A stretch of 64,000 bases of DNA from Spirochaetaceae bacterium (GTDB lineage: Bacteria; Spirochaetota; Spirochaetia; DSM-2461). A model generated the notes under the pieces. The model ran no database searches and was not told the DNA's origin. It saw only the letters and a list, made by a program, of their open reading frames with translations. The position numbers and the translations under genes were made by a program. Positions 1,075-51,356 of this stretch are shown piece after piece (within the stretch, counting starts at the first letter, position 1; each line of letters starts with the position of its first letter). The stretch lies in NCBI GenBank assembly GCA_051531975.1, contig JAOPTT010000005.1:224001-288000 (forward strand). Reading direction: 5' to 3'.

Positions 1075-1145
1075 TTGACAACTAGTTTTTATATGCTATA
1101 TTAAATGTTATATCATTTCGAACATATGTTATATATGATATGTCA
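1075..1145 (+). promoter_or_regulatory. sigma70-type promoter with two TGATATATCA-like boxes
   Basis: TTGACA 1075-1080, TGnTATATT 1094-1102; boxes TGTTATATCA 1106-1115 and TGATATGTCA 1136-1145. Confidence 0.6.
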
Positions 1146-14614: not shown

Positions 14615-14716
14615 ATGAAATTTGTAGAATTACTTAATAAGACCAATTGGAATGACATAGAAGAATGTTTACTTAATAAATTATTGTTCCTCTTTTCTTA
14701 TTATACAGTGTTCTAA
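14615..14716 (+). pseudogene. Probable truncated gene 5' remnant (MKFVELLNKTNWNDIEECLL...)
   Basis: Strong RBS AAGAGGA and ATG, but the frame runs into the 3' end of the convergent GH2 and stops after 33 codons. Confidence 0.35.
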
Positions 14717-19692: not shown

Positions 19693-22626
19693 TTAATCTA
19701 AGTTTATTTTTAATGTTTTTACTTCAAATGCACTGAAGTTTAATGTTAATTCTGATTCTTTTGTTAATAGTTCCGGGTTATCTTCCACCATGTTAGTTTC
19801 ATAAATTCCATTTGTTGGTTTTTTTATAGTCAACTTACAGCTTTCTTCTAAACCATTTCTTTCATATAGTCGTAATATTAAATTATTAGAATCTTCACTC
19901 TCTTTAACTGTAGAGTAGGTGATACTGTTATTGGACAGTGTAAAAAGATTGTTAATTATGGTTTCTCCATCTTTATACACAGGTAACCAGCTGTTAAAAT
20001 TCATAGCTCTATTATCAACTTTAGCCTCTGTTACATTTCCATTATGAACATATAGACCATATTTGATCTCATGTTTACCTATGTCTCCACTTTTACATGG
20101 ATAATTTGTTGACTTAATTAGGTTTAGATCCAAAATACTGTTTTTTGTTTTAAAGCCGTATTTACTATCAGTTATTATAGAAGCTCCCCAATCTTTATTA
20201 CTCATATCAACCCAGTTATGCCCACAAGCTTCGTATTGAGCTCTCTCCTGTTTTGTATCATTTTTAGTTGATCTTGAAATATTACCAAATTGAATATCAA
20301 ACACAGCTTTATCAGTTTTTAGAGTAAGAGGGAATGATGTTCTTAACATTCGTCTTATATTTTGCCAGTCTACATCTAAAACAAAATCGATCTGTCTGCT
20401 ATCTGGTTTTAACCTAATTTTTTGAGTTAATCTGCTTTTACCATATTTATAATGTTGAACTATCTCTTGTACAGTTCCGTAATTAAACTCTTCACTTTTA
20501 ACTAACTTCATTTTATATGTTGGAAGGATTTTATAGAACTTAAAAATATCCCAGGCACTTGCGATATCTGTATATACTTTGAAAGAGTTCCCAGGAGCTC
20601 TTAAAACTTCTCTGTTAAACTCTTTATCGAAGATAGATTTTATTGAACCATCTCTTTTAAAGTTTACTTTGATAAAATTGTTTTCCATTACTCTTACAGA
20701 TTTTCTTAAAGATTTTTTATAAGCGACTTTATCAATAATGTTTGAGGAGAGTGGTGAGATTGTTAAACTCTGATATTCACTGTCTGAGTATCTATCAACA
20801 ACAGACTCTTCAGCTAGTGGATTATAAACTTTTATATCGTCTATATTTATTATATCCTTATCGTCTAATATTTTTGTTCCAAGCACAGTGGAAGTTATCT
20901 CTTCTAATCTTTTATCAAGGATCTCATACTTATATATACATTCATCATAAACTCTTTTAATAGAAGAACCAGGTAGTATGTCGTGGAACTGATATAACAA
21001 TACTTCCTGCCAAATCTCCCTTATCTCATTTTTATATATATTGTAACTATCCATTTGAATTAATAGGGTTTCCACAGTTTTTAATCTGTTTTCAAGTTTT
21101 CTGTTATAATATTTAACTCTACTTTGTGATGTATAAGTACCTCTATGTTTCTCTAGGTATAACTCACCAGCAAATGATGGAAATTTATCCTTAATATCCT
21201 TCAATTTATGAAAAAAGTCCCTGGAAGTTTCAATTTTAACCTTAGGCATTGGAGATGTTCCATTTAATCTTTTTATTCTCTCTAAGTGGCTTGCTGCAGG
21301 TCCTCCACCACCATTACCAACACCAAATAGACTAAGTGTTTTTTGTGATATAGCTTTTTCCTTATAATTTTCTTTTGATTTTAAAAGATATTTTACATTT
21401 GCAGGACTATTATATTCCCCTTCTGGAGGCATGTGTGAAAATACTGTAGAACCATCAATTCCTTCCCAGTTAAAAGTATGATGAGGAAATTTATTTGTAT
21501 CGTTCCAGGACAATTTTATTGTCATAAAATAGTCTAAACCAGATTTTTTAATAATTTGAGGCATATTTCCTGAATATCCAAAAACATCTGGTAGCCATAA
21601 TGAATTTACCTTTATATCAAACTCATCCTGGAAATATTTAACTCCATATAACATTTGACGAACCAGGGCCTCTTCTCCCGATACATTAGTATCTGCTTCT
21701 ACCCACATTCCACCTTGAACTTCCCATCTGCCTTCTTTTACTCTCTGTTTAACTTCTTCGTAAAGTGATGGGTGTTGTTCTTTAATCCATTTATATAGTT
21801 GAGGTTGACTGGCACCAAATTTATAATCTGGGTATTCATCCATTAATCTAAGTGCGTTGGCAAATGTTCTAGCACCTTTTCTATATGTCTCTCGAATTGG
21901 CCATAACCATGCCAGATCCAGATGGGCGTGACCTATAGAACTAATTTCATGATTATCTTTGCTTTTAGTTTTTAATAGATCCTGTGTAATACTTAGTGAA
22001 TCTTTGATCCAATTTGAATTAGATAATCTATTTATTTTATTCAGACCTTTGTTATATTTCTTATAAGCTGACTTATCCCTAGTCCTCGAAGCGTTTTTTA
22101 ATGGAACTAAAGATTTCAGATCATAATAAAGTGTTCTTGCATCAAGATCTCTTGTAACTATTTCTACAGTTTCGATACGGCCTTTTCTTTTTACTTTCCC
22201 AAAAAGGTCGTTCATACCAGCATCTAACCACAGATCAATATTTCCATCTGAAGATATAAAGTCATTAATAGGGAAGTATCTTTTTGCAGGAGATCCTAGG
22301 GAGCCTATAAAACCAAAAGTTGAACTTCCATTAGTGAATCCTTTAAGAGGTTTACCATTTGTATCAAATAGTAGGGCTTCACAGTTCATATCCAGTTTCA
22401 GATATAAAGTTTGTTCTGTTTTAACATTAACTTTTCCTGTTAAATGAAACCATCCACATGAAAATAGTCTTCCCCATGTATCACCAATTTTATACTCAGT
22501 ATAATTTAGTTGTTTACGTTCTAAAAATGGAACAGGTTCTTCTGTTATTGCTCCAGATATATTTAAATCTAATATTTTTGTATCAATTAATTGTTTTGCC
22601 CTGCTGATAATTTTTAAAAATTGCAT
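19693..22626 (-). CDS. GH38 alpha-mannosidase (cytosolic MngB/Man2C1-like)
   Basis: GHAHLDLAWLW, WLPDVFGYS, GELYLEKHRGTYTSQ, QFHDILPGSSI. Confidence 0.93.
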   Translation of the reverse strand: MQFLKIISRAKQLIDTKILDLNISGAITEEPVPFLERKQLNYTEYKIGDTWGRLFSCGWFHLTGKVNVKTEQTLYLKLDMNCEALLFDTNGKPLKGFTNGSSTFGFIGSLGSPAKRYFPINDFISSDGNIDLWLDAGMNDLFGKVKRKGRIETVEIVTRDLDARTLYYDLKSLVPLKNASRTRDKSAYKKYNKGLNKINRLSNSNWIKDSLSITQDLLKTKSKDNHEISSIGHAHLDLAWLWPIRETYRKGARTFANALRLMDEYPDYKFGASQPQLYKWIKEQHPSLYEEVKQRVKEGRWEVQGGMWVEADTNVSGEEALVRQMLYGVKYFQDEFDIKVNSLWLPDVFGYSGNMPQIIKKSGLDYFMTIKLSWNDTNKFPHHTFNWEGIDGSTVFSHMPPEGEYNSPANVKYLLKSKENYKEKAISQKTLSLFGVGNGGGGPAASHLERIKRLNGTSPMPKVKIETSRDFFHKLKDIKDKFPSFAGELYLEKHRGTYTSQSRVKYYNRKLENRLKTVETLLIQMDSYNIYKNEIREIWQEVLLYQFHDILPGSSIKRVYDECIYKYEILDKRLEEITSTVLGTKILDDKDIINIDDIKVYNPLAEESVVDRYSDSEYQSLTISPLSSNIIDKVAYKKSLRKSVRVMENNFIKVNFKRDGSIKSIFDKEFNREVLRAPGNSFKVYTDIASAWDIFKFYKILPTYKMKLVKSEEFNYGTVQEIVQHYKYGKSRLTQKIRLKPDSRQIDFVLDVDWQNIRRMLRTSFPLTLKTDKAVFDIQFGNISRSTKNDTKQERAQYEACGHNWVDMSNKDWGASIITDSKYGFKTKNSILDLNLIKSTNYPCKSGDIGKHEIKYGLYVHNGNVTEAKVDNRAMNFNSWLPVYKDGETIINNLFTLSNNSITYSTVKESEDSNNLILRLYERNGLEESCKLTIKKPTNGIYETNMVEDNPELLTKESELTLNFSAFEVKTLKINLD

Positions 22627-22644: not shown

Positions 22645-22703
22645 TATGATATATCAAATAAGTCTTATTTGATATATCATATCATAACTAGTGGAGATGT
22701 CAA
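22645..22703 (-). promoter_or_regulatory. Promoter of the GH38-GH38-GH2 operon with tandem TGATATATCA operators in a 37-bp palindrome
   Basis: -35 TTGACA 22703-22698, -10 TATGAT 22681-22676; boxes 22647-22656 and 22670-22679. Confidence 0.75.
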
Positions 22704-22722: not shown

Positions 22723-23868
22723 TTACTTTTTAGGTTTTCCTGTAGATTTTCTTATAAGAAGTTTAGCCTTAACAGTTTGTATATTAACTTCCATACCAGG
22801 GAATTGTATCTTTTTAAATAACTCTTCTGCAGCAAGATTTCCTATTTTGTAAACGGGTTGCTCTACAGTTGTTAAAGGTACAGGTAGATGGGACGAAAAT
22901 GGAAGGTTATCAAATCCTGTTATAGAGTAGTCTTCAGGGATCTTTATTCCTCTGCTAATAGCTGTTCTCATAATTACTTCAGCCATCTGGTCATTAACAG
23001 CAGTTATAGCTGTAGGCCTTTCAGAGGCTGGGATGGATTCGATAAAATCAATTATATAGTTACATTGTCTAACTTCAAGAGGCTCATCAGGGTGGTAATC
23101 TGATGGTACAGAGTTCAGATCCATATCTGTAAATAGGTGTTTCTTTTGAAGAGGTAAACCATGGCTAACATGGGCTTTGCAAAATCCGTTATATCTACTA
23201 AGTTCAGATGAGACATCGTAAACTGAAGTTCCTGCAAAAACTATTTTTGTATGTCCAAGCTCAATTAGATGGCTTGTTATTTCATAGGATCCCATTTCAT
23301 TATCTGCCCATACAAGAGGTGCATCGATACCATGGATTTTTTTATCCAATAAAACAAAAGGAAACTTATCTATTAATAAATTACTGTAAAGATCCATATT
23401 GTCACTATGTTCTACAGGATAAAGGATAATTCCATGTGATTGTTTTGCTACAAGATCCAAGATTATCTCTCTTTCTATTTTTGGATCATCCGAGGAGTTA
23501 TGAAAGGTTACAAGGTAGTTTTTTTTCTTGGCAACATCTTCAATACCTTTAAATATATCAAAAGAAAAATTCCCTTCAAATGGTAAAACTAGGGATATAA
23601 TCGATAATTTTGTGCCAGTTTCTATATTACTTTGTGAGGTTTTCCATATTTCTGAATCGTTAACATAGCTACCGCTACCTTTAATTCTTCTAATATAATT
23701 ACCTTGTTCAAGCTCCTTTAAAGCTCTAGTAACTGTAATTCTGCTAACATTAAAATTTTTAGATATTTCCATTTCAGTAGGTAGTCGATGATCTTTTTGG
23801 AATTCACCTGACTTTATTTTACTAAATATATCTTTATATATTATTACATATAGTGGTTCTTTACTCAT
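22723..23868 (-). CDS. GntR wHTH + LacI-type effector-binding regulator (AraR-like architecture)
   Basis: LPTEMEISKNFNVSRITVTRAL...GSGSYV; C-terminal IPEDYSITGFDN, PLTTVEQP, LLIRKST. Confidence 0.92.
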   Translation of the reverse strand: MSKEPLYVIIYKDIFSKIKSGEFQKDHRLPTEMEISKNFNVSRITVTRALKELEQGNYIRRIKGSGSYVNDSEIWKTSQSNIETGTKLSIISLVLPFEGNFSFDIFKGIEDVAKKKNYLVTFHNSSDDPKIEREIILDLVAKQSHGIILYPVEHSDNMDLYSNLLIDKFPFVLLDKKIHGIDAPLVWADNEMGSYEITSHLIELGHTKIVFAGTSVYDVSSELSRYNGFCKAHVSHGLPLQKKHLFTDMDLNSVPSDYHPDEPLEVRQCNYIIDFIESIPASERPTAITAVNDQMAEVIMRTAISRGIKIPEDYSITGFDNLPFSSHLPVPLTTVEQPVYKIGNLAAEELFKKIQFPGMEVNIQTVKAKLLIRKSTGKPKK

Positions 23869-23937: not shown

Positions 23938-24051
23938 TGATATATCATAGGGTGTAAAATATCTGTTTTTTAACAAAATTGAGAATGTTTCATGCAGTGT
24001 TTCTAGCATGAAATATCTTGACAATAGAGTTTTTCATGATATGATATATCA
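23938..24051. promoter_or_regulatory. Divergent control region regulator/GH78 with two TGATATATCA boxes
   Basis: Boxes 23938-23947 and 24042-24051; TTGACA 24018-24023, TATGAT 24040-24045. Confidence 0.7.
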
Positions 24052-24099: not shown

Positions 24100-26424
24100 A
24101 TGATAAAAAGAAATTGTGATTTTACAAATGCTAAATGGATTGGGAAGAAGTATCACAGTATAAAACACAGTAGAAAAAAAGAGGAATCAATAATACATCA
24201 CTCAAACTCTATTCTAAGAAGGTTTTTTGATAAATCTCTTGGAAACCTAGGGTTTCAAAACCGTGAATTTGTAGAGGCTCCTTTTTTCAGAAAAGTGATA
24301 AATGTTAATAATATCAAATCAGCTAAGGTAAGCATTACAGGGTTAGGTTATTTTGAGTTATATATAAATGGTCAAAAAGTTGGAGACGATATTTTATCTC
24401 CACCTTTTAGCCAGTACGAGAAGACAACTTACTATCTCAGTTACGATATTAAGTCTTATCTTAAAGAGGGTGAAAATGTTTTTGGAGTAGTTCTTGGTAA
24501 TGGGATGTTTAATGTTCATCTAAATAATGCATGGAACTATGATACAACCCATTGGCGAAGTTTCCCTAAGTTTATATTAAGCGGTGTAATAGAAGCAGAT
24601 CGTAACATTAGTATCGTAAGTGATGATACCTGGAAAGTTACAACAGGTCCTATTATTAGTGATGATATATATGGGGGAGAAACCTACGATGCCCGTCTGG
24701 AACTATACGATTGGATGGATAGTTCAATAGATGATTCTAGTTGGGGTGATATAAAAATATATAGCTCTCCAACAGAGACATTAAAACCCTTGGATATGCC
24801 GCCTATGAAGATAATTAAGCAGATTAAACCTGTTAATTACTGGAAGATAGGTGATAAAAAGTGGGTATTTGATCTTGGTGTTAATACAACAGGATTTGTA
24901 CGGTTAAAATCTGCTGCAACTAAGGGAACTGAGGTGACCTTAACATATGCTGAAATGCTAAATGGAAAAGAACTGGATCGCAAAGCACTGCTTGAACATA
25001 CAGTAAAAAAAGACCATAAATACATACAAAAGGATAGGTATATATTTAAAGGTGAGGGTATGGAAGAGTGGCAACCCCGTTTTACCTACCACGGGTTCCA
25101 ATATGTAGAAGCCCATGGACTGGAAAGTGTAGATGAGTCTACTATTTTAGGCTTAGAAATACATACAGATCTAAAAGAAATTGGTGGTTTTAGCTGTTCT
25201 AATGAATTATTAAACAAGATATTTATAGCAGGAAATCAATCCAACTTAAACAATTTCCAAGGTCTACCTACAGATTGTCCTCATAGGGAGAAAAACGGTT
25301 GGACTGGGGATGTAAATCTATCAATCGATTATAATCTATTATGTTATGATTCTGAACATATCTTTAAAAAATGGTTAAATGATATTGCCGATAACCAGAA
25401 GAAAAATGGCCAGATTCCAGCAATTGCCCCTACAAGTGGTTGGGGATTTGATGGTTTTTCAGGACCAGCCTGGGACAGTGCTCTAATAATAATTCCTTGG
25501 CATATATTTCTTTATCGTGGTGATACAAAGTTCTTAGAATCTATGTATGAAACTATGAAAAAATATATGACATGGCAAACAGGTAAAGCAAAAAATGACA
25601 TTATAACCTATGGGCTTGGGGATTGGTGTTCACCTAACAGAGTTGCCCATAAACCAAAATGTCCTATTGCCATAACAAGTACCGGTTATCATTATGACTC
25701 AACAAAATTGATGGCAAAAATTGCAGAAGTTCTTGGCAGAAGTAAGGATGTTTTAAAGTATAAAGAACAAGCAGAAAGAATACATTCTGCATTTAATAAA
25801 AAGTTTGTAGACCGAGAAACTGGTTTTATAGAAGGTGACTGTCAGGCAAGCTATGCAGCAGCCCTATTTTTTGGTTTTATAAGTGACGATCTTACTCAAA
25901 AAGTTCTTGATAGGCTTATAGGACATGTTAAAGAGCAAAATTATCATCTTGATACTGGAATTCTAGGTACTAGATTTCTTTTAGATGTTTTAAGCCGGTA
26001 TGGTCGTGGGGATTTAGCATATAAAATCGCAACACAAACAGATTTTCCTAGTTGGGGACTTTGGATAGAGCAGGGTGCTACAACATTATGGGAGAACTGG
26101 AATGGAGAGCAATCTAGAAATCATAGAATGTTTGGAAGTATTAGTAGCTGGTTTCTTTGTAACTTAACAGGAATTCAGATGGATGATAAGTTCCCTGGTG
26201 GTAAAAAAGTTAATATCAGACCCGATTTTAATAACGATCTTACATGGGCAAAAGGATACACAGAAACTGATAGTGGGAAATTATCTGTTTACTGGCATCG
26301 AATTGAAAATAGGATCACTTTAAAAATAGATGCTCCCTCAGATGTTGATATTACAATCTACTTAGATAGTAGTTATGAATGTGAAATAGATTCAACATGC
26401 AAGTATGAGATTCTTTATATATAA
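24100..26424 (+). CDS. GH78 alpha-L-rhamnosidase family protein
   Basis: GLGYFELYING, GETYDAR, FTYHGFQYVE, PTDCPHREKNGWTGD, GATTLWENW, SRNHRMFG. Confidence 0.92.
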   Translation: MIKRNCDFTNAKWIGKKYHSIKHSRKKEESIIHHSNSILRRFFDKSLGNLGFQNREFVEAPFFRKVINVNNIKSAKVSITGLGYFELYINGQKVGDDILSPPFSQYEKTTYYLSYDIKSYLKEGENVFGVVLGNGMFNVHLNNAWNYDTTHWRSFPKFILSGVIEADRNISIVSDDTWKVTTGPIISDDIYGGETYDARLELYDWMDSSIDDSSWGDIKIYSSPTETLKPLDMPPMKIIKQIKPVNYWKIGDKKWVFDLGVNTTGFVRLKSAATKGTEVTLTYAEMLNGKELDRKALLEHTVKKDHKYIQKDRYIFKGEGMEEWQPRFTYHGFQYVEAHGLESVDESTILGLEIHTDLKEIGGFSCSNELLNKIFIAGNQSNLNNFQGLPTDCPHREKNGWTGDVNLSIDYNLLCYDSEHIFKKWLNDIADNQKKNGQIPAIAPTSGWGFDGFSGPAWDSALIIIPWHIFLYRGDTKFLESMYETMKKYMTWQTGKAKNDIITYGLGDWCSPNRVAHKPKCPIAITSTGYHYDSTKLMAKIAEVLGRSKDVLKYKEQAERIHSAFNKKFVDRETGFIEGDCQASYAAALFFGFISDDLTQKVLDRLIGHVKEQNYHLDTGILGTRFLLDVLSRYGRGDLAYKIATQTDFPSWGLWIEQGATTLWENWNGEQSRNHRMFGSISSWFLCNLTGIQMDDKFPGGKKVNIRPDFNNDLTWAKGYTETDSGKLSVYWHRIENRITLKIDAPSDVDITIYLDSSYECEIDSTCKYEILYI

Positions 26425-33806: not shown

Positions 33807-35105
33807 ATGAAAAAGATTTTTACTTTATTTTTATTATTTTCACTGATTGGAATTAATTCACTTTTCGCAAAAACTCAGCAGGAAGAAGATTTAAATAAAA
33901 TTAAGCTTATTGTTCCTCATCTTGGTTACAATGATGACCAGATAACAACTGAAAAGGCAAGACCCGGAGGTTTAACACCTCATGATGACTACTATATAGC
34001 AGTTAGAAAATCAGTTGAAGAGAAATATCCTGATTACGATGTTGATTGGGTAGACTGGGGTTGGGGGGAAGTTCTCGACCTGAAGCAACGGGCATTGATT
34101 ACTGCGGGGGATGTTCCAGATATTCTTTCCGGTGGTGAATATATATTGAATTATGCAAAAGAAGGAATTCTTGAGCCTCTACCAATGGATATTGTAGAGT
34201 CTATGAACCCTACATTTTTAGGTTATGACAGTGATGGTCAAGCTGTGGCTGTAGCGCATAAATCCTCTATATTTATGCTCTTTTACAATAAAGACCTAAT
34301 GGTCAAAGCTGGACTTGATCCAGAGCAGCCTCCAAAGACATGGGCAGAATTTAAGTCTATGTCTGATGCTATTACTAAAGCTGGAAATGGTGAATTCTAT
34401 GGTGGTGGAATCCCAACTTTCCCCCATTATGGTGGTTCTTTACGGGCGACCCCTTTCTTTCGTCAGAAGGATACAGACTTTGCAACAGCAGATGGACAAT
34501 CTAATCTTTCTGACCCTGCACTAATGGAAACATTGGAGTTTATTCGGGTCATGAATAATAACTTTCCTCCAGGTCTTGGTAATAACTCAGATGAGGGGCC
34601 ACTTTGGAGCGCTTTTCAGAACACTCAGACTGTTGCTTTTGTAATCAATGGAACATGGCAGGCAAGTAGTTGTATCCGTAAAGGTATGAACTGGGGAGTT
34701 GCGGTACTTCCGGTAGCCCATGGTGGTATAAATGGAAACTGTCTTGTAGGTTCTGTATTTAATTCTGTGCCAAAGGCTGGAAAAAACAGAGAAGCTTCTT
34801 TTAACTTAATAAGAGAAGCTTTATCAGTAGAGAATCAGAAGATCATGCTTGAAGATACAAATGCTGTAGGACTAAATGAGATTATTAACGATCCTTCTTA
34901 TTATGATGATAATGCAACTCTAATATCTGTTATGGACGCTTTAAGAAATGGAGAGTATTCATCGATAGCTACTTTTGCTAAGAACAGCTCTGCAGTTTGG
35001 GAAATTGTTCATCAGAAAGTATTAGCGAGACTAACTATGACAAACGATCCTATCTCAGAAATTATTAAAGATGCGGAAAAGGAAATAACACCTCTTCTTA
35101 AATAG
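33807..35105 (+). CDS. Sugar ABC-transporter substrate-binding protein (no permease genes adjacent)
   Basis: Signal peptide; LFYNKDL...AGLDPEQPPKTW; INGTW. Confidence 0.85.
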   Translation: MKKIFTLFLLFSLIGINSLFAKTQQEEDLNKIKLIVPHLGYNDDQITTEKARPGGLTPHDDYYIAVRKSVEEKYPDYDVDWVDWGWGEVLDLKQRALITAGDVPDILSGGEYILNYAKEGILEPLPMDIVESMNPTFLGYDSDGQAVAVAHKSSIFMLFYNKDLMVKAGLDPEQPPKTWAEFKSMSDAITKAGNGEFYGGGIPTFPHYGGSLRATPFFRQKDTDFATADGQSNLSDPALMETLEFIRVMNNNFPPGLGNNSDEGPLWSAFQNTQTVAFVINGTWQASSCIRKGMNWGVAVLPVAHGGINGNCLVGSVFNSVPKAGKNREASFNLIREALSVENQKIMLEDTNAVGLNEIINDPSYYDDNATLISVMDALRNGEYSSIATFAKNSSAVWEIVHQKVLARLTMTNDPISEIIKDAEKEITPLLK

Positions 35106-36044: not shown

Positions 36045-36289
36045 AAATTGATTAGAAGAATCAAGATTTTAATAGCTTTTGATATATCAAATATACCCAT
36101 CATAATGCCTGTATACTATTAAAAATTACACTTAAGTAGTATATACAAATATCAGTTTTAAGGTGAAAATTATAATAAATAATATATAAGGCAGTTATGT
36201 TTCAATTCACACAGTATAATATTATAAAGATTCTTAACATAGGACGGATCTTTATACTTGCTAACAAGATTTTAAGGATTAAAAAGTAA

Positions 36290-41881: not shown

Positions 41882-43486
41882 TTATTTTTCCAACTCCTGG
41901 CCTAACTTTTTAAGATTAAGTACACTCTGCTCACCAACATCTTTTACAATTGAACTCTCTTCTTCAAGAATTAACATCTTCTCCTGTGTATGTCCAATAG
42001 ATTCCAAAACTAATTCTGATGATTTTAGCTGTTGTACCATTGAGTGAGATATCTGTTGGATTTGATCATTTACATCTCTTATTCCGCTTCTTACTTCAGA
42101 TGTAGATGAGACGGATTGTGCATTACCGTTATTAATATCCTGTGTACCTGCGGAAAGTTCTGTAACTCCCGATAAGATCTCATCCATACCGGATACAACA
42201 TTTTTAATCTCTTCCCTTATCTGGTGGAATGAGTTAGTCGCTGTGCTATTTATATCAGTAGCTGAATTAATTGCTTCACTAATCTTTTTTAACATATCAG
42301 AGATAGTTTTAACGTTATTACCTGAGTTTTCAGATAGTTTTCTTATCTCATCTGCAACAACTGCAAAACCTTTTCCTGCATCACCTGCATGGGCAGCTTC
42401 AATTGCAGCATTCATAGCCAAAAGGCTGGTCTGGGACGCAATATTACTAATAACACTATTTACTTCACCTAAAGATTGTATTAGACCTTGTAAGTTCTCC
42501 ATAGCAGAAGTGGATTCTGATAGTACTTCTTCTGCTCTTTCAGCATTAACCGATAATTTAGTTACAATTAACTTTCTATCCTCTGCGATCTTAGCGATAT
42601 TATTTATTGAACTTGCCATCTCTTCAATTGCTGCTGAAGTCTGTTCAATTACAACAGTTTGGGTTTCACTGGATTTAGATACAACTTCTGAACTCTCTGC
42701 TATAGATGAACTAGACTGTTGTAAGACTCCTGTAGATTCAGAAAGTATAGCAACCTCCTGTTTAATAGAGAGAATCATATCTTTAACTTCTGTAACAGCA
42801 CTTGACATTTTATTTGAAGATTCCATAAGCTCCTCTCCAGTATCAAAATCCCCTTGTAGTTTACCAACAATAGTATGTAAATGCTTTGTTCTTTCTAGGT
42901 TTAAAGAGCTCTCTTTTGATATTGATTCAACAAGATTACGCCCCCGTTTATTAGAACTAATAACAATTATTCCTGAAAAAATTATTAATATCATTGCAAT
43001 AATAGGGTCATCTATAGTTGGTGCTTTATCGTTTAGATTCGCAGGTAAAGCCCTAAAAAAGTGATTAAAGATTATGGCTAAAGATCCAAGAACCATGACT
43101 ATAGCTGGTTCTTTCGGTTTTTCAGTAACTAATAGAGTGATAACAAGGACAAACATCTGAAGAAAAGCGATGAAATATACATCTACATATGATGCTATAT
43201 TCATTGTTAAAATTAGCATTGAGCAAGCAATGGATAAAAAAGTTATAGTAATTGATCTTGCTACATTCATTTTATTCATCTTAACTAAAAAAGTTATGGA
43301 CAGGGTTAAAAAACTCATAATCACCATATATGTTGGGGTCTTTTCCCCTTCGATAATTACAGAAAGAAGAATGAAAATACCTGTTAGACCTAATAATATT
43401 GAAACTAATGAAAAGGCCTGAGTATATAATACGTTATCATCTTCTTTATACCCGCTTAAATAAAACTTATCTATAATCTTTCTCAT
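41882..43486 (-). CDS. Methyl-accepting chemotaxis protein with multi-TM N-terminus
   Basis: [38 protein letters not shown]; about 6 hydrophobic segments. Confidence 0.93.
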
Positions 43487-43542: not shown

Positions 43543-45714
43543 TTATTCAGATAAAAATCTATCTATAACTTGCTGACGATACTCTTTTGACAGAGAGGAA
43601 AAAAATGCTGAATATCCAGTTACCCTAATAACTAAGTCAGGGTGTTTTGAAGGATCTTCGTGAGCCTGCATCAATCTCTCTTTTGTAATACAATTTAAGT
43701 TTATTAATGTCCCACCCATATGGTTATGTGTTTTAATTAACGCCATTAAAGCCTCGATTCCACCTTCACTTTCAACTAGATTACTATCTATATCAAGGTG
43801 TAGTGGTGCGGAGTTCCCTAATCCTGGTTGTGTTTTAGCAACTGCTGTAGCTTTTAAGGATGGGGAAAAGGAGTTAATTCCTCTGGCAAAACCCGGGTCA
43901 GGGTCGTTTGAATGTGAAATAGGATCTTTATCAAATCGTCCATTTGGAGTTGCAGATAAACTTTTTCCGTAGGCATATACATCTCCATGGGAGAACATAC
44001 CGGGGATTATTCTTAACTGGTGTTTAGTTGTTGGGATTTTAGAATAATCCACAAAAAAATCACGTATTTTAAGTGCCCATTTTTCTGAGAGTGAGCCGGG
44101 AGACCCAAACCTGTCTATGTTTTTTAACATTAAACGTATATTCTCTTCATTTTCATAGTTTACATCTAATACATGGAGAAGTTTGTCCCAGGTTAGATTT
44201 TTTTCATTAACTACCCTTAACTCTATTGCAGCAAATGAGTCTGCAACAGTGGCAAGTGCAATACCATCGATACAGAAACTTATATTATCAACACCACCTT
44301 CCGCTACATTTAATCCACGTTCTATAGGACCGTGCATAAAGAGGTTTAAAACAATCTCAGGCTTATTTCTTGATATAACCTCATAGTGACAATCAAAACC
44401 ATCCTTTATTGAATCCAACATTATTTTTAAGTGATATGTAAACTTATCCCACAGAGTATCTAGATCTCTGGTTGTTAATGTTTTTAAATCACCTAGAGAT
44501 TCAACTAGAGCTGTTGCCATATTACATCTTGTTACATCCTGCATTGGATACTCAGTCCCTGGAAGAGCTGTCCAGTTACACCCAACTTTTGCTCTTAATC
44601 TAGCAGCCTGTATAGGAAATCCATTTTTTGAATAACCTTCTTCACACCCTATATTCAGTGAATAATCAACACCTGTTCCATCTGCAAGATTATATTCTAA
44701 ACTTCTGCGAAGTAATTCATCATCAACATCGTCATGCACTCTTAACGCAATGTTTACAGGTATTTTTATCTGGTGCATAGCTTCAAGGATTATATATGAC
44801 ATTTTACTTGTAACATCCCCTGAACCATCGGCCTTTAAACCTGCAATCTGGGAGTAGTGAGTATCATTAAAAAACAGACTTGATATATACCAGATAGCCA
44901 TATCATCTGTTAATATTCCATTTTTTATATCTCGATCGTAATATGGTTTTAATATTTCATCCAGCTGTGAAAGTGCTCCACCAGCAAAATAAGTCCTATC
45001 AAAAACTTGGAAATGTGCTAAAAACTGACACGATTCCCTAAGGGTTCTTGGAGGATTATCTATAAGCCATCTATTTATCTTGGCTATTTCTATATAATTA
45101 TTACGTTTAAAACTATCTTGCTCTGTCTCTGCAAGGTCTTCTGCGTAATTAGCATGATTCGTTATCCACTGCTTAATTCCCAGTAGTAGTAACTCTTCCC
45201 CATCATAAAATGAGGTATCGGTTGGATTGTTTTTGGCTCTATAATGTCTAACTTTATTAAGAAGGCCTGCCCAACCAAGTTCTAAACCTATATTCATATC
45301 AGGACCAAAGTGGTTCATAGCTCCAAATCCACTTTGCCAAATGTTGTATCTATTCCAAATCTTTTCCAGATGTAAAGGTCTGTCTTCAGGGATAATATCA
45401 ATTTTAACCCAGTTTTGAAGATAACCAACCCAGCATCCAGCTAGGGCACTATTTGCATTTATGTATTTTGGGGATTCATTGAGATATTTTCTAAAAGTTT
45501 CACCAATAGCTTTAGAACCATATATATAACCGTCTTTGTGATTTGGCTCTGCAGTAAAATTAAAATCCGGATGTAGAATAAATCCATGATCATCGACATC
45601 TATATATCCAAGTTTTTTAATTTTATCACTATTTATTGATATTTTATTTTTATGAAGTCCATTAATTAATTTTTTATATTTATCTGAAACTGTTATTTTC
45701 TCAAAATAGTTCAT
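43543..45714 (-). CDS. Glycyl radical enzyme (PFL superfamily), substrate unknown
   Basis: C-terminal HPDLVIRVTGYS (Gly700), ATPNGR, GIALATVADSFAAI, Cys loop VGCNW (Cys379). Confidence 0.9.
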   Translation of the reverse strand: MNYFEKITVSDKYKKLINGLHKNKISINSDKIKKLGYIDVDDHGFILHPDFNFTAEPNHKDGYIYGSKAIGETFRKYLNESPKYINANSALAGCWVGYLQNWVKIDIIPEDRPLHLEKIWNRYNIWQSGFGAMNHFGPDMNIGLELGWAGLLNKVRHYRAKNNPTDTSFYDGEELLLLGIKQWITNHANYAEDLAETEQDSFKRNNYIEIAKINRWLIDNPPRTLRESCQFLAHFQVFDRTYFAGGALSQLDEILKPYYDRDIKNGILTDDMAIWYISSLFFNDTHYSQIAGLKADGSGDVTSKMSYIILEAMHQIKIPVNIALRVHDDVDDELLRRSLEYNLADGTGVDYSLNIGCEEGYSKNGFPIQAARLRAKVGCNWTALPGTEYPMQDVTRCNMATALVESLGDLKTLTTRDLDTLWDKFTYHLKIMLDSIKDGFDCHYEVISRNKPEIVLNLFMHGPIERGLNVAEGGVDNISFCIDGIALATVADSFAAIELRVVNEKNLTWDKLLHVLDVNYENEENIRLMLKNIDRFGSPGSLSEKWALKIRDFFVDYSKIPTTKHQLRIIPGMFSHGDVYAYGKSLSATPNGRFDKDPISHSNDPDPGFARGINSFSPSLKATAVAKTQPGLGNSAPLHLDIDSNLVESEGGIEALMALIKTHNHMGGTLINLNCITKERLMQAHEDPSKHPDLVIRVTGYSAFFSSLSKEYRQQVIDRFLSE

Positions 45715-45723
45715 TTTATACTC

Positions 45724-46617
45724 CTATTTTATATTCAAACCACAAGCTTTAAGCTCAATTTTTGCTATTTCCACTTGTTCTTTTGTAGGTATTATAAACT
45801 TGTTATAATCCATTTCAAGCAGATTGTACTTATTTTCACCTAGTTTATGATAAGGAAGTATCTCTACACTTTTAATATTAAGAGGTTTTAATATATCTCC
45901 CATCTTCTTAAACTGATTTTCATTAACTCCAATAATAAGGGGGATTCTTATAATAATATCCTTATTATTCTCTGATAATTTTTTTAAGTTTTCCAATATT
46001 AAATAATTATCCACACCTGTATATTTTTTGTAGATATTTGTATCTGCAGCTTTAAGATCAAAAAGAAAAAGATCGGTAACATCCAAAATTCTTTCAAAAG
46101 AACTCCATGGGACATTTCCTGCAGTATCAATTGCGGTATGTATGTTCTCTTTTTTACAATCAGTTAAAATTGTCTCTAAAAACTCTATTTGAAGCATAGA
46201 CTCTCCACCGGAAAATGTTACACCACCATCTGAATTATTAAAATAATCCCTATCAGTTAGTATATTTTCTAAAACATTTTTTCGGTCTATATCTTTTCCC
46301 ACACCTACAATTGCTTCTGCAAAACAGTTCTGGGCACATTTAAAACATGCGGTACAGGAGTCTCTATCTATCTTATGAATGTTTTTATTATCCAACAGAT
46401 GAACACTGTTTTGACAAACATCAAAACAGTTATTACAAACGATACATTTATCAGGATAAAATTCTATATGATTTTTGTGTTTTATAGATTCAGGATTATG
46501 GCACCAGGAACATTTTAGGTTGCAACCTTTAAAAAAAACTACAGTCCTTATTCCTGGGCCATCATGAACAGAAAAACGTTGAATATCAAAGATTCTTGCG
46601 TTATTTATTTTTTTCAC
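45724..46617 (-). CDS. Glycyl-radical activating enzyme (radical SAM with ferredoxin insert)
   Basis: HDGPGIRTVVFFKGCNLKCSWCHNPES, CIVCNNC/CTACFKC, GGVTFSGGE, LPYHKLG; start overlaps the upstream gene. Confidence 0.93.
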   Translation of the reverse strand: MKKINNARIFDIQRFSVHDGPGIRTVVFFKGCNLKCSWCHNPESIKHKNHIEFYPDKCIVCNNCFDVCQNSVHLLDNKNIHKIDRDSCTACFKCAQNCFAEAIVGVGKDIDRKNVLENILTDRDYFNNSDGGVTFSGGESMLQIEFLETILTDCKKENIHTAIDTAGNVPWSSFERILDVTDLFLFDLKAADTNIYKKYTGVDNYLILENLKKLSENNKDIIIRIPLIIGVNENQFKKMGDILKPLNIKSVEILPYHKLGENKYNLLEMDYNKFIIPTKEQVEIAKIELKACGLNIK

Positions 46618-48976
46618 TTTCCAACCGCAGTTGTACTAGGACATCGGGACGTACACATACAAAATCCGGTCCTAAACTTTTCTGAACTTCCTGAAGTCTG
46701 TCCATTGACCAGTTCCAGTTAAGAACCCACGCTTCAATAAAATTCTCTCCACGTGTAGCAGCTTCACGGATTTCACCAGCCATATGTTCCACTCGTTCCT
46801 CTATAGGTAGAGAAGGAGCAAAAGAGGATGCTGAGCGACAGGCGACAACATCGTTTGGAGCTACCCTTGCACAAGCAGCACTAGGAGCACCTCCATAACC
46901 TGTAAAAATACCCTTTAGCTGACCTGTTGAGTGTTTTGCATATCTATCTTCCTCATCGTTTCCACCATTAATTAACCAGAGACAGGATGTATCAATCGAG
47001 CTCATTGCTTTCTCTGTCATTAAAGCATACTTTGTATATAGCTCTTCCCGCTGCTCTGGGTAGGCCATAAGATAAATTATAGGTTCTGTATATCCAACAC
47101 CAAGTCCACCAACAAGCAAGTCGTTTTCCGATGCTGTTCTAAGGTAATAATTAAGTACGGTCGGAGCCATCATAGCTGCAGATGGAGCAAATGACCAACC
47201 CATAGGAATTGAGCCTCGTTGTGTCTTATCCCACTGTAGTTCCCTAGTCTGGAGCATTAATGCCTCCCCAAGATTATCTCCATCGGACATTATATGTGTA
47301 TAATAAACTTTATCTGGATCCAGTTTAGGAACATTTGGTTTCTTGTGTTTATACCCTCCTGTTTCTACACCGGAGTGAATTGTCAGATTTGTTGCTTCAT
47401 GGGATGGGGTTAGTATTTTACCAAAAAAAGAACCAAGTAGAAGTCCAGGTTCTTCTAATACAGCATCAGCCATACGATCCCCACCTTCTGGAACATTTGG
47501 CATCCAGTCAAACCACCAGCCTATTATTGGAGTATTTGGTGGAGTTGAGGCCAATATACCTCGAAGAAGATTCTCTTCCGGTAAGGTTCTTGTCATTGGA
47601 AACCAGAAAGTAAATATTTTAAATGATACAAGGTAATCAGTTAACAGAAAGATTCCAGGATAACATGTCGCCAGTATATTATGATTCATTTTTGGGTAGA
47701 GTTCAGTGTATGCCCAGTGCATCATCTCGTACTGGGAGGACCACTTGCCTCTAACATCAAAAATAACTGGTAGATTTAATTTTTCATTCATCTGGGGGGT
47801 TACCGGTACAGCGTCCTCTATGGAACCGATCATCATAACTACATTGGTCTCATTTAGACTGTTTGCATATTTTTGTCCAATGTTATCCATGATTGAACCA
47901 TCGTAAATAACTGAACCGTTAATTTTATCCCTAAAAATATCCCATGTTTGAGACTGGGAAACCATTTTAGAGGTATAACCTTCAAAGTGCAGCTCTTCAA
48001 GCCACTCTCTATCCTGTCTGTCATACCTAGTATGAAGAAGGTATAAAGATGGTTTTTTCCGGTTTACAAGTCCCTGAAGTACCGAAAATGCAAACTCCTC
48101 CTGGGGTGTAGCACTACTTACATCAAGAATATAAAGTGTTTTGGCAGGTCTAGGTGATTGTGGCCATAAGTTTGGATAAGGTTTTATTCCAGTAACCGGT
48201 TCATAACCAACAGGTACATCTTGGAAAGGCTGAAAACTTCCAGTCTCATTAAGTCGGTATTCAAAAGAGTTTACCCAGGCTTTATCCCACTCTGTTGCAA
48301 ATGCATCATTTTTTAGACTTTCAAGGACAAGCCGGGTCTCTTCATCTTTTTTAGCAGAAGCGTATATCTCTAACAATGCAAAACGAGATAATATTCTACT
48401 AAGATTATCAGGACAATCCTCTATTAATTTGTTTAATTTCCAAGTAACATTATCTGGAGTATCTAAAATGTCTACTTGCCAACTAACATTCCATGGATCA
48501 TCTCCTGAGTGTATTTTTACTAATATAGTGTTTACTCCAGGTTTAAGGTGACATAGCATATAGTCGTATTGTAACCTTATACCAGGGTGGGGGATAGTTC
48601 TGTAAAGAGTTTGTTCTTCATTTATCCATGCTGCAACTATTGCTTCGGAACCTATAGTTATTTCCGCTATTTGTTCATATTTAACTTCAACTTCTAAATG
48701 TATGTAATAGACACTCCATGTCTCTCTATCATGATCCATTACAGAACCAGACTGCCACGGTGTAACTCCATTTTTCCCAGGATACTCTGAATTAGGATCG
48801 AAACCTTCTTCTGGTGGATAGGGTATAAATACTCCCTGATATCCGGCGTTCTCATATGGACCTGAAAAATGAAGACTTTTAGGTATTAATGTTGTCTTCT
48901 TTGGAAAACTTTTTTCAAGTAGAGTTTGCCATTTAGCCCTTGCAGTATTGTTAATATTATTAACTAATTGTTTCAT
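46601..48976 (-). CDS. GxGYxYP-family putative glycoside hydrolase with extra N-terminal domains
   Basis: LQGLVNR, SDGDN, RGSIPMGW, GLGVGYTEP (variant of the family motif); AGGAG RBS; no signal peptide. Confidence 0.75.
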   Translation of the reverse strand: MKQLVNNINNTARAKWQTLLEKSFPKKTTLIPKSLHFSGPYENAGYQGVFIPYPPEEGFDPNSEYPGKNGVTPWQSGSVMDHDRETWSVYYIHLEVEVKYEQIAEITIGSEAIVAAWINEEQTLYRTIPHPGIRLQYDYMLCHLKPGVNTILVKIHSGDDPWNVSWQVDILDTPDNVTWKLNKLIEDCPDNLSRILSRFALLEIYASAKKDEETRLVLESLKNDAFATEWDKAWVNSFEYRLNETGSFQPFQDVPVGYEPVTGIKPYPNLWPQSPRPAKTLYILDVSSATPQEEFAFSVLQGLVNRKKPSLYLLHTRYDRQDREWLEELHFEGYTSKMVSQSQTWDIFRDKINGSVIYDGSIMDNIGQKYANSLNETNVVMMIGSIEDAVPVTPQMNEKLNLPVIFDVRGKWSSQYEMMHWAYTELYPKMNHNILATCYPGIFLLTDYLVSFKIFTFWFPMTRTLPEENLLRGILASTPPNTPIIGWWFDWMPNVPEGGDRMADAVLEEPGLLLGSFFGKILTPSHEATNLTIHSGVETGGYKHKKPNVPKLDPDKVYYTHIMSDGDNLGEALMLQTRELQWDKTQRGSIPMGWSFAPSAAMMAPTVLNYYLRTASENDLLVGGLGVGYTEPIIYLMAYPEQREELYTKYALMTEKAMSSIDTSCLWLINGGNDEEDRYAKHSTGQLKGIFTGYGGAPSAACARVAPNDVVACRSASSFAPSLPIEERVEHMAGEIREAATRGENFIEAWVLNWNWSMDRLQEVQKSLGPDFVCVRPDVLVQLRLESEKNK

Positions 48977-49017: not shown

Positions 49018-49074
49018 TGTTATATCATTTGATTGCAATATGATATAACATATCATGGATACTGATAAAGTCAA
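49018..49074 (-). promoter_or_regulatory. Promoter of the GxGYxYP-AE-GRE operon with two TGATATATCA-like boxes
   Basis: -35 TTGACT 49074-49069, -10 TATGTT 49052-49047; boxes 49018-49027 and 49041-49050. Confidence 0.65.
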
Positions 49075-49229
49075 GAAAAAGAACTTTTTATTACATCTAT
49101 ATTATTTACAAATTATTATTGACAAACAGTATTGTTATTGTAATATTTTAGACGTAATAACTTGTATAATGAATCCAGATATTTGATATGTCATATTTAT
49201 TCATTATATATAAGGGAGAAAAGGTTTCC

Positions 49230-51356
49230 ATGGCAGATTATAAAAAAATGGCTAACGATATAATTTCAGATATGACAGTAAAAGAGAAGGTTTCACAGAT
49301 GGTTCATGGAGCCAGGGGAATCTCCAGACTGCAGATCCCTGCTTATAACTGGTGGAATGAGTGTTTACATGGTGTTGGTAGAGCTGGTATTGCAACTGTA
49401 TTTCCCCAGCCAATAGGTTTGGCTGCTATGTTTGATGATAATTTTTTAAAAGAGATCGCTGAAGTTATTTCCGATGAGGTTAGGGCTAAATATAATGAAG
49501 TTAATATTGTAGATAAAAAGATACAATCATCAAAATTATTAGGAAAATTACAAGCTCATAAATTATGGTACAGAGGATTAACATGCTGGAGTCCAAACAT
49601 CAATATATTTAGGGACCCAAGGTGGGGACGTGGACATGAAACTTTTGGTGAAGATCCATATCTAACCAGTAGGTTAGGAGTCGCATTTATTAAAGGTCTA
49701 CAAGGTGAAAATCCAGAGTTTCTGAAAGTTGTTGCAACACCAAAACATTTTGCTGTTCATAGTGGTCCTGAGTTTAACAGGCATAGTTTTAACTCTGTTG
49801 TAAATAAAAAAGATCTATACGAAACATATCTTCCGGCATTTAAAGCCTGTATTCAGGAGGGTAAAGCCGCATCTATAATGACAGCATATAACGCTTTTAA
49901 TGGGGAACCTTGTGCATCAAGCGAAGAACTCCTACAACATATTTTAAGGGATGAGTGGGGTTTTAATGGTTTTGTTGTATCAGATTGTGGAGCAATTCAA
50001 GATATCAGAAAACATCATAAAAAGACAAAAAGTAATACTGTAGCTGCATCAATGGCTGTAAATGCAGGTTGTGATCTAAACTGTGGAACAATGTATAATT
50101 TCTTAGCTAATGCTGTAAAAAAAGGACTTGTTACAGAAGACACCCTAGATATAAGTTTAACTAGACTTTTTGAAGCACGTATTAAACTAGGAATGTTATC
50201 TTCTAGAACAAAAAATCCATATGATGAAATTAAACCTGATGTTATAAACTGTAAAAAACATCGGGATCTTGCTTTAGAAGCTTCAAAAAAATCACTTGTT
50301 TTACTAAAAAATGATGGTATATTGCCATTAAAAAAAGAGATAAAAAAAATAGCGGTTATAGGTCCAAATGCAGATTCTAAATCCGTACTTTTAGGTAATT
50401 ATAGTGGTGATCCTTCATCTTTTTCTACTATATTAAGTGGAATAAAAAAATCATTTTATGGTGAAGTTCTTTATACTCAAGGTTGCCACTTAACTAAAAC
50501 AAATACTAAAGATTTTAAAAAGGTTATAGCCCTCGCAAAAGAAGCAGATGTCGTTATATTAGCGATTGGTCTAGCTCCTGAAATAGAAGGAGAAGAGGGG
50601 GATGCATTTAATTCAGATGCTGCCGGGGATAAACTTACAATAAAATTACCTGGACTTCAGGAGAACTTAATTAAAACCCTTAATAATGTAGGAACTCCTG
50701 TTGTAGCTACTGTTTTAGCTGGTAGTGCCCTTGATTTAAGAGTGCTTGAAAAAAACTCTTCTGCAATTATTCAAGCATGGTATCCGGGGCAGGATGGAGG
50801 GGAAGCAGTTGCAAAACTAATCTTTGGTGAATACTCTCCATCAGGTAGACTTCCTGTTACTTTTGTTGAATCAGATAGTGATCTACCAGATTTTGAAGAT
50901 TATTCAATGGTAGGAAGAACATACAGGTTTTTAAATAAACCCCCACTGTATCCATTTGGTTTTGGATTAAGTTATACCAACTTTGATTATGATAACCTGG
51001 TAACATCCTGGACTGGTAGTGAAGAGAACAAAAGTCTGAAAGTTAGTATTACAGTTAAAAATACAGGTAATATAGACTCAGATGAAATAGTACAATATTA
51101 CTATAAATTTCATGACAAAGATAATAACTCTGCAAATTTCCAGCTATGCAAGTTTAGTCGAATAACTTTAAAAGTTGGTGAAACTGTAACCTTAGAGACA
51201 AATATTCCTTTAGAAATGTTTAAAGGTATAGATAACAATGGGAAATCAGTACTAAGAAATGGGGATTACACTATATTTGTTGGAGGTTCCGGGCCTGATA
51301 AAAGAAGTGAACAGTTAGTTAAAAGAGAAGTGCTAAAATTGAGCTTTAAATTATAA
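49230..51356 (+). CDS. GH3 beta-xylosidase/beta-glucosidase
   Basis: WWNECLHGV, RDPRWGRGHETFGEDP, KHFAVH, VVSDCGA nucleophile, FN3-like C-terminus; ATG 49230 after AAGGGAG; TGATATGTCA box at 49184-49193. Confidence 0.93.
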   Translation: MADYKKMANDIISDMTVKEKVSQMVHGARGISRLQIPAYNWWNECLHGVGRAGIATVFPQPIGLAAMFDDNFLKEIAEVISDEVRAKYNEVNIVDKKIQSSKLLGKLQAHKLWYRGLTCWSPNINIFRDPRWGRGHETFGEDPYLTSRLGVAFIKGLQGENPEFLKVVATPKHFAVHSGPEFNRHSFNSVVNKKDLYETYLPAFKACIQEGKAASIMTAYNAFNGEPCASSEELLQHILRDEWGFNGFVVSDCGAIQDIRKHHKKTKSNTVAASMAVNAGCDLNCGTMYNFLANAVKKGLVTEDTLDISLTRLFEARIKLGMLSSRTKNPYDEIKPDVINCKKHRDLALEASKKSLVLLKNDGILPLKKEIKKIAVIGPNADSKSVLLGNYSGDPSSFSTILSGIKKSFYGEVLYTQGCHLTKTNTKDFKKVIALAKEADVVILAIGLAPEIEGEEGDAFNSDAAGDKLTIKLPGLQENLIKTLNNVGTPVVATVLAGSALDLRVLEKNSSAIIQAWYPGQDGGEAVAKLIFGEYSPSGRLPVTFVESDSDLPDFEDYSMVGRTYRFLNKPPLYPFGFGLSYTNFDYDNLVTSWTGSEENKSLKVSITVKNTGNIDSDEIVQYYYKFHDKDNNSANFQLCKFSRITLKVGETVTLETNIPLEMFKGIDNNGKSVLRNGDYTIFVGGSGPDKRSEQLVKREVLKLSFKL

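What the first reader, a model, noticed from the sequence alone, without database searches (positions are those of the whole stretch)
43543..48976. Candidate new pathway: GxGYxYP putative glycosidase + activating enzyme + atypical glycyl radical enzyme in one operon
Seen: three tightly packed minus-strand genes (17-bp overlap, then a 9-bp gap) behind one promoter, divergent from a GH3. Established: GREs need a cognate radical-SAM activase; GxGYxYP proteins are putative glycoside hydrolases known from glycan-utilisation loci (e.g. Bacteroides BT2193). There are no microcompartment shell, PTS, choline, hydroxyproline or sulfonate genes nearby to assign a known GRE class. Inference: a hydrolase releases a sugar or sugar derivative that is then processed by uncharacterised radical chemistry. 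I do not know of this gene trio being described.
Basis: partly seen in the sequence, partly recalled or inferred. Interest (0 to 1): 0.85.

Follow-up and report, generated by a model that had tools for sequence, protein, structure and literature searches.

The report
Unstudied radical enzyme in mannoside regulon
This bacterium appears to control an oxygen-sensitive radical enzyme from a widespread, unstudied branch together with its alpha-mannosidases, which points to an unknown anaerobic step in breaking down mannose-containing sugars, although the neighbouring putative glycosidase is a local companion rather than a fixed partner.

Summary
The three genes are real and intact. The glycyl radical enzyme (GRE) keeps Cys379 and Gly700 but has G-C-N-W where eliminases and isomerases have CxE. 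It scores far below every curated GRE class cut-off and belongs to a separate, widespread clade. The scan noted this clade before on four other genomes. The proposed trio is not conserved: no GxGYxYP gene in 130 other GRE loci, and no close relative in 301 class-level genomes, 30 of which carry the GRE. New here: a palindromic box sits twice in the operon's promoter. Of 18 intergenic copies in the genome, 13 lie in one 130-kb region, before GH38, GH99, GH2, GH78, a second GxGYxYP and a GntR-LacI regulator. Other species place the GRE beside sugar ABC transporters (17 of 34 loci), that regulator type (8) and GH38 (6). An invariant Arg396 aligns with the pyruvate-binding Arg435 of PFL. Best reading: a radical lyase for an anionic sugar derivative from alpha-mannoside breakdown. 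Substrate, binding of the box and co-transcription are untested.

The parts
43543..45714 (-). Glycyl radical enzyme of the G-C-N-W clade (Cys379, Trp381, His135, Asp393, Arg396, Gly700)
45724..46617 (-). Cognate radical-SAM activase with CxxxCxxC and two ferredoxin-type motifs
   Evidence: best matches of about 45-58% to activases beside close clade members against 36-42% to four other activases of this genome
46601..48976 (-). GxGYxYP-family putative glycosidase without a hydrophobic signal stretch, with an extra N-terminal all-beta domain; Asp565 and Asp567 of the proposed triad kept
49018..49027 (.). Palindromic box TGWTATAWCA, copy 1 of a pair 23 bp apart
49041..49050 (.). Palindromic box, copy 2; overlaps a candidate -10 hexamer of the minus-strand promoter (49074-49047)
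49188..51356 (+). Divergent GH3, closest curated model xylan beta-xylosidase Xyl3A (806 bits, under its cut-off of 1250); shares the intergenic boxes
41882..43486 (-). Methyl-accepting chemotaxis protein, possible fourth gene of the unit
   Evidence: not a recurring neighbour in other GRE loci
22723..23868 (-). GntR-LacI hybrid regulator, candidate binder of the box; same type as the regulator beside the GRE in 8 of 34 other loci
22647..22679 (.). Pair of boxes 23 bp apart before the GH38 genes
23938..24051 (.). Two boxes (23938 and 24042) between the regulator and the GH78 gene
19693..22626 (-). GH38 alpha-mannosidase, Ams1/Man38 type; 42% identical to the GH38 beside the GRE in L025
16533..19682 (-). 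Second GH38 of the same unit
24100..26424 (+). GH78-type (alpha-L-rhamnosidase family) gene behind the boxes at 23938 and 24042
1106..1115 (.). Single box before the GH2 gene 1166-4303
33807..35105 (+). Sugar-binding protein without adjacent permeases, 52-57% identical to binding proteins inside five other GRE loci; no box directly before it

Best explanation
The GRE is an intact member of an uncharacterised branch (G-C-N-W Cys loop) that serves anaerobic catabolism of a sugar derivative released when alpha-mannose-containing glycans are taken apart in the cytoplasm. In this genome the operon is one unit of a regulon marked by the box TGWTATAWCA, probably bound by the GntR-LacI regulator. The GxGYxYP protein is one of several co-regulated glycosidases, placed before the activase only in this lineage as far as tested. 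Proposed chemistry (all inferred): the activase installs the radical on Gly700; Cys379 thiyl abstracts H from a CHOH carbon; Arg396 anchors a carboxylate, as Arg435 does in PFL; His135, at the place of the glycerol dehydratase acid His164, protonates the neighbouring leaving group (water or an O-substituent); Asp393 or another residue replaces the lost Glu as base; the product is a deoxy-keto sugar acid. Likeliest substrate class: an aldonic acid, possibly O-substituted, that ordinary mannonate-type dehydratases cannot take. Shown: genes, motifs, fold, clade, box statistics, neighbourhoods. Inferred: box binding, co-transcription, substrate, reaction. I give about 0.6 to the pathway-level reading and about 0.3 to this exact chemistry.
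For: Fold of a complete GRE (pLDDT 86; best Z 32.5, rmsd 3.2 A over 677 residues, identity at most 21%). His135, Cys379, Trp381, Asp393, Arg396 and His576 invariant in 157 of 157 clade sequences; Lys replaces Arg396 in 13 of 13 distant members. Alignment to glycerol dehydratase gives H135=H164, W381=E435, D393=D447, and G246/A247 for H281/S282. Profile alignment puts R396 on PFL Arg435, which binds pyruvate (PMC13450708, section 5.3). Box: 13 of 18 intergenic copies in 2.6% of intergenic DNA, binomial p 2e-17, best of 760 palindromes, shuffle mean 0.22; the only two pairs at 23-bp spacing precede this operon and the GH38 genes. Other targets: GH99, MFS transporter plus second GxGYxYP, sulfatase, GH2, GH78. 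Other species: sugar ABC 17, glycosidase 15, GntR-LacI regulator 8, GH38 6, enolase-family dehydratase 6 of 34 loci; the two dehydratases tested are closest to mannonate dehydratase ManD (380 and 398 bits, cut-off 550). GxGYxYP genes lie in an alpha-mannan locus of B. thetaiotaomicron and near GH92/GH38/ROK in Caldithrix (PMC4071793).
Against: GH38 is beside the GRE in a minority of loci (6 of 34), from about four lineages; against 0 of 22 sister-clade loci the difference is weak (p 0.07, kin not independent). Many neighbourhoods hold other sugar genes or none, so the clade may cover several substrates. The box was found by looking at this promoter and the 130-kb region was drawn after seeing the sites. 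It is not conserved before the regulator in 8 other species' loci (two-mismatch hits only). One box lies before an unrelated nitroreductase (36080), and a LacI gene also has boxes upstream. The regulon includes non-mannosidase families (GH2, GH3, GH78). No aldolase, dehydrogenase or kinase for a product lies in the operon. Residue equivalences come from sequence profiles at about 25% identity, not from coordinates. Without the CxE glutamate, the usual eliminase base is missing.
Confidence: 0.55

Rival explanations
1. One reading: the GxGYxYP protein releases the GRE's substrate in a dedicated three-gene pathway.
For: 17-bp overlap and 9-bp gap; the GxGYxYP protein lacks a signal stretch, unlike its paralogue; proposed catalytic aspartates kept; shared promoter boxes.
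Against: 0 of 130 other GRE loci hold a GxGYxYP gene (profile and paralogue searches, control E 7e-29). 0 of 301 genomes match at E<=1e-30 where 30 hold the GRE (the same search rang in 83 of 201 genomes of another phylum). PF14323 in 1 of 5 GRE genomes, on another contig. G064 has both on different contigs. Caveat: the neighbourhoods of the roughly 90 close GxGYxYP relatives could not be fetched.
Confidence: 0.12
2. A C-C cleaving enzyme: a decarboxylase or formate-releasing lyase for a sugar acid (for example uronate to pentose plus CO2).
For: Arg396 at the PFL Arg435 place; no CxE glutamate, which PFL also lacks; acid-sugar enzymes nearby in some loci.
Against: Only one Cys on the loop, whereas formate lyases need two (PMC13450708); His135 and Asp393 match hydroxyl-handling places of glycerol dehydratase; PFL model 43.5 bits against 994.
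Confidence: 0.15
3. A sugar-phosphate isomerase working like PflD/YbiW, with Arg396 binding phosphate.
For: PflD is among the closest solved sequences (E 2e-56 with the profile) and shares the His/Gln-Asp place at 392-393; a ROK kinase lies in the window; yeast mannans carry phosphate (recalled).
Against: CxE, kept in all three isomerases, is absent; the tree separates the clade from YbiW and PflD; no PTS or FsaA-type aldolase among the neighbours scanned, and kinases are rare there.
Confidence: 0.08
4. A mobile GRE-activase cassette for a common small metabolite of sugar fermentation; it lands in many sugar operons and the mannoside link is local.
For: Varied neighbourhoods; patchy spread: not found in 36 same-family genomes or 300 of the phylum; groups with Oscillospirales sequences.
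Against: Recurrence of the same regulator type, GH38 and one binding-protein subfamily in several lineages; tight operator control here.
Confidence: 0.15

Closest known systems
B12-independent glycerol dehydratase (PDB 1R8W) and other GRE 1,2-eliminases
   Same: Ten-stranded barrel fold (Z 30.4), single-Cys loop, Gly loop, His164 and Asp447 places kept, activase with ferredoxin insert
   Different: Trp for the CxE glutamate; Arg for Phe450; Gly-Ala for His281-Ser282; about 18-20% structural identity; about 60 residues shorter
PflD and YbiW, GRE isomerases of 1,5-anhydromannitol-6-P and 1,5-anhydroglucitol-6-P
   Same: Sugar-derived substrate context; among the best solved sequence matches
   Different: No CxE; separate clade; ABC transporters and glycosidases as neighbours instead of PTS and aldolase
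Pyruvate formate-lyase
   Same: Arg at the Arg435 place; no glutamate on the Cys loop; databases label the relatives 'pyruvate-formate lyase'
   Different: One Cys, not two; 43.5 bits against a cut-off of 994; Z 24 only
GxGYxYP family (BT2193, PDB 3SGG) and its alpha-mannan contexts
   Same: Fold (E 2e-25), Asp-Gly-Asp motif, company of GH38/GH99/MFS/ROK genes
   Different: No signal stretch, about 270 extra N-terminal residues, placed before a GRE activase; the invariant Glu508 is one residue off the BT2193 Glu272 place

Membership tests
Glycyl radical enzyme superfamily (PFL-like) | C-terminal Gly loop | tested here: met
   R697-V-T-G700-Y-S; PF01228 48.6 bits over 22.2
Glycyl radical enzyme superfamily (PFL-like) | Cys loop and ten-stranded barrel | tested here: met
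   Cys379 aligns with C433 of glycerol dehydratase; predicted model Z 32.5, rmsd 3.2 A, 677 residues
Glycyl radical enzyme superfamily (PFL-like) | Cognate radical-SAM activase | tested here: met
   TIGR02494 336 over 174; activase within the locus in 25 of 34
Glycyl radical enzyme superfamily (PFL-like) | Glycyl radical formed and turnover | not testable with these tools
   needs EPR and assay
GRE 1,2-eliminases (GD, PD, CutC, HypD, IslA, HpsG) | CxE motif | tested here: not met
   C-N-W in 120 of 120 homologues; motif defined in PMC13450708
GRE 1,2-eliminases (GD, PD, CutC, HypD, IslA, HpsG) | Curated model cut-offs | tested here: not met
   HypD 160/1100, CutC 130/1050, sulfopropanediol enzymes 172 and 135/1000, TIGR01774 181/678
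GRE isomerases (YbiW, PflD, HplG) | CxE motif and grouping with YbiW/PflD | tested here: not met
   PRK09983 model 162/1109. HplG was not in the tree
Formate lyases (PFL, TdcE) | [quoted passage not shown] | tested here: not met
   G-C-N-W
GRE decarboxylases (HPAD, IAD) | Curated model cut-offs | tested here: not met
   103/1150 and 93/1100
GxGYxYP family | N-terminal repeats plus C-terminal barrel | tested here: met
   four Pfam domains over cut-off; fold match to 3SGG
GxGYxYP family | Proposed triad Glu272, Asp331, Asp333 | tested here: inconclusive
   D565 and D567 invariant in 30 of 30; Glu509 aligns with Glu272 but Glu508 is the invariant one, in a low-confidence loop
GxGYxYP family | Glycosidase activity | not testable with these tools
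   only predicted in PMC4071793

The most novel reading that the evidence does not exclude
The C-x-W clade is an additional GRE class that works without the CxE glutamate and performs new radical chemistry on sugar acids, such as removing an O-methyl or other O-substituent from a mannose-derived aldonate, or cutting its carbon chain. It would define an undescribed anaerobic route for modified mannose residues of fungal, algal or invertebrate glycans, carried by gut and sediment anaerobes, and this genome's regulon would name the inducing glycan.
Probability: 0.3. Interest if true: 0.85.

Novelty: new variant of a known kind. Interest (0 to 1): 0.62.

Why it matters
The 2026 review (PMC13450708) says whole GRE clades lack validation and that substrate assignment is the gap. 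This clade is large (1143 hits at E<=1e-20, the best 119 at 59-71% identity), occurs in records titled human gut metagenome, and is labelled pyruvate formate-lyase in databases. A conserved Trp and Arg in the active site imply chemistry unlike the CxE enzymes. The operator-defined regulon narrows the screen from 'any sugar' to products of alpha-mannoside breakdown and offers a direct induction test. It also adds a third context linking GxGYxYP proteins to alpha-mannans.

Tried and rejected
RNA: no RNA holder listed; the one run laid gave 8 short contigs, none on the three genes; no conclusion. Binding-protein search in 301 Oscillospirales genomes found nothing and had no positive control. GxGYxYP search in 3 same-genus genomes: none. 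Mannosylglycerate as substrate: the two GH38s score 118 and 80 bits against 1138 for mannosylglycerate hydrolase; rejected as unlikely. Microcompartment GRE: no shell genes. Promoter and terminator scans were at chance level. A recurring 757-aa neighbour (6 loci) has no Pfam, NCBIfam or PDB match; the Atlas gives only a GH42-like lead. Conserved operator in other species: not found. Literature: 'glycyl radical enzyme' + GxGYxYP 0 papers; GxGYxYP 2; a five-term network search 0; with mannosidase 5, one checked and irrelevant, four seen as listings only; GCNW/GCHW/CXW 0; led to the review and listings not read. Subscription papers and supplements were not seen; a network figure or supplement could hold this clade unnamed. 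Both trees are quick trees; the careful search did not finish. No complex prediction was sent.
Full report
Observation. The three minus-strand genes, the 17-bp overlap, the 9-bp gap and the divergent GH3 are as described. The activase passes TIGR02494 (336 against 174) and has CxxxCxxC plus two ferredoxin-type motifs. A chemoreceptor gene follows 56 bp after the GRE with no terminator-like site between. The genome has no shell family PF00936. An earlier AI note on this genome calls it a marine spirochaete; I did not test that.

The GRE. It has Cys379 in G-C-N-W and Gly700. All 12 NCBIfam GRE models that match score far under their cut-offs (best 181 of 678). A model from 26 aligned relatives has mean pLDDT 86 and matches solved GREs over nearly its whole length, best Z 32.5, rmsd 3.2 A, 677 residues, with no standout and at most 21% identity. 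The homologue search gave 1143 proteins at E<=1e-20 among 7998 scored; the best 119 are 59-71% identical and 120 of 120 listed keep G-C-N-W. A quick tree of 53 rows puts 46 C-x-W sequences on one long branch (support 100), apart from E. coli YbiW, PflD and PflB and three CxE enzymes of this genome; other characterised GREs were not in the tree. The clade splits into a G-C-N-W group (31 rows, with the window) and a mostly G-C-H-W sister group. The window's enzyme groups with Oscillospirales sequences, and a clade with the two Spirochaetota sequences is rejected (p-AU 4e-94; the group was chosen after seeing the first tree). It was not found at E<=1e-100 in 36 same-family genomes or 300 of the phylum. 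Acquisition by transfer is an inference.

Active site. By profile alignment to glycerol dehydratase: H135=H164, C379=C433, W381=E435, D393=D447, R396=F450, G246/A247=H281/S282. The review PMC13450708 (read: abstract, sections 4.3, 5 and 7, and passages) gives E435 as base and H164 as acid, says that the eliminases and isomerases it describes keep CxE, and has no occurrence of 'CXW'. Substrate roles of D447 and H281 are recalled. Against PFL, R396 aligns with Arg435 (436 counting Met), which binds pyruvate. H135, C379, W381, D393, R396 and H576 are invariant in 157 of 157 clade sequences; 13 of 13 distant members have Lys at 396. A kept positive charge there suggests an anionic substrate (inference).

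Is the trio conserved? I gathered 130 other loci: 12 genome contigs, 80 metagenome contigs (the best 80 of 291), 38 from whole-genome searches. Many are redundant gut copies or short. A profile of 30 close GxGYxYP relatives and the genome's own paralogue found nothing in their six frames at E<=1; the control scored 7e-29. In 301 genomes of one class, 30 had the GRE clade at E<=1e-100 (8 of them at E<1e-200) and none matched the GxGYxYP protein at E<=1e-30. That threshold would miss distant family members such as the paralogue (2.5e-22); the search did ring in 83 of 201 genomes of another phylum. PF14323 was in 1 of 5 GRE genomes, on another contig. The reverse test is missing: about 90 close GxGYxYP relatives exist, but I could not fetch their DNA.

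What is conserved. With a home-made gene caller and Pfam (not every distant singleton neighbour was scanned), 50 loci remained after removing copies over 88% identical, 34 with at least 8 kb of flank. Of the 34: activase 25, sugar ABC genes 17, a glycosidase 15 (this count includes sialidase-like BNR proteins and the 757-aa protein with only a GH42-like lead), GntR-LacI regulator 8, GH38 6, enolase-family dehydratase 6 (labels for five loci entered by hand). None of 26 sister-clade loci had GH38 or that regulator; Fisher p 0.07 and 0.017 on the 22 long ones, overstated by kinship. Two dehydratases tested are closest to ManD but under its cut-off. The window holds the same kinds of parts, scattered: GH38 at 19693-22626 (42% to the GH38 in L025, though two other GH38s of the genome score alike), the regulator at 22723-23868, and a binding protein at 33807-35105 that is 52-57% identical to those in five GRE loci.

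The regulon. The promoter region has a 14-bp inverted repeat built of two copies of the palindrome TGWTATAWCA, 23 bp apart. The genome has 154 exact copies and only five pairs within 120 bp, all on this contig; the two pairs at 23 bp are here and before the GH38 genes. Of 18 intergenic copies, 13 fall in C5:160-290 kb, 2.6% of intergenic DNA (p 2e-17; best of 760 palindromes, the next three being variants of it; shuffle mean 0.22, maximum 3). Motif and region were chosen after looking, but the margin survives that. Sites precede a GH99 gene, an MFS transporter followed by the second GxGYxYP gene, a sulfatase and a LacI gene, GH2, the GH38 pair, the regulator and GH78, a nitroreductase, and this operon with GH3. 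PMC4071793 (read: parts 1 and 2 of 6) places GxGYxYP genes in an alpha-mannan locus of B. thetaiotaomicron and near GH92, GH38, MFS and ROK genes in Caldithrix. So both the GxGYxYP family and the GRE clade point, separately, to alpha-mannosides. Against this: the box is not conserved beside the regulator in 8 other loci, binding is untested, and the regulon has non-mannosidase members.

How it most likely works. Glycosidases of the regulon dismantle an alpha-mannose-rich glycan; a resulting sugar, perhaps oxidised to its acid, reaches the GRE, which removes water or an O-substituent by thiyl H-abstraction with His135 as acid and Arg396 as anchor. No product-handling enzyme lies in the operon, and the base is unidentified.

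Novelty. My nine paper searches found no description of this clade or of the trio (listed under Tried and rejected); supplements and subscription papers were not seen. The scan noted the clade on four other genomes and this same stretch once before (report withheld). What this report adds is the negative test of the GxGYxYP partnership, the Arg435 equivalence, and the operator-defined alpha-mannoside regulon. Verdict: a new variant of a known kind, interest 0.62.

Noticed in passing
G000:C5:171400-177433 (L112:8401-14434): Second unit of the same regulon: sulfatase, MFS transporter, a 529-aa GxGYxYP paralogue with a signal-like N-terminus, and a GH99 gene, with five boxes between C5:172568 and 177528.
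   Followed up: partly
window 14673-16494: GH2 gene in two ORFs in different frames (15889-16494 and 14673-15866), behind the GH38 pair; looks frameshifted and shortened.
   Followed up: partly
window 41181-41828: C-terminal half only of a glycoside-cation symporter (GPH family); the N-terminal half was not found just upstream.
   Followed up: partly
window 49188-49232: The GH3 probably starts at the second Met (49230), which has a purine-rich ribosome site; a one-mismatch box at 49184 would then lie in its leader.
   Followed up: partly
G000:C7:151795-154059 (L113): Another odd GRE in this genome with a G-C-Q-W loop, on a long branch next to the clade, beside URO-D-like genes and a fucose-isomerase-like gene.
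   Followed up: partly
G000:C3:206343-223088: GH38 genes with a ManD-like dehydratase, SDRs, a GntR-LacI regulator and ABC genes: resembles the GRE neighbourhoods of L080/L094/L081 but no GRE matched there.
   Followed up: no
L026:6649-8922 and L070:4884-6704: Two recurring neighbours without Pfam match: a 757-aa protein (6 loci, GH42-like lead) and a 606-aa binding-protein-like one (4 loci).
   Followed up: partly
L099-L111, L121-L133: Sister clade (mostly G-C-H-W, Lys at 396, Trp at 576 in the 13 aligned) often sits among several Gfo/Idh/MocA dehydrogenases, suggesting another substrate.
   Followed up: partly
window 7690-12026: A 602-aa ORF with no Pfam or NCBIfam match, between a ROK kinase and a third, divergent GH38.
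   Followed up: no
window 36080-36089: A perfect box before a ferredoxin-nitroreductase gene (35190-36044); its role in the regulon is unexplained.
   Followed up: no
L011, L012: The GRE gene is frameshifted in these two genome contigs.
   Followed up: no
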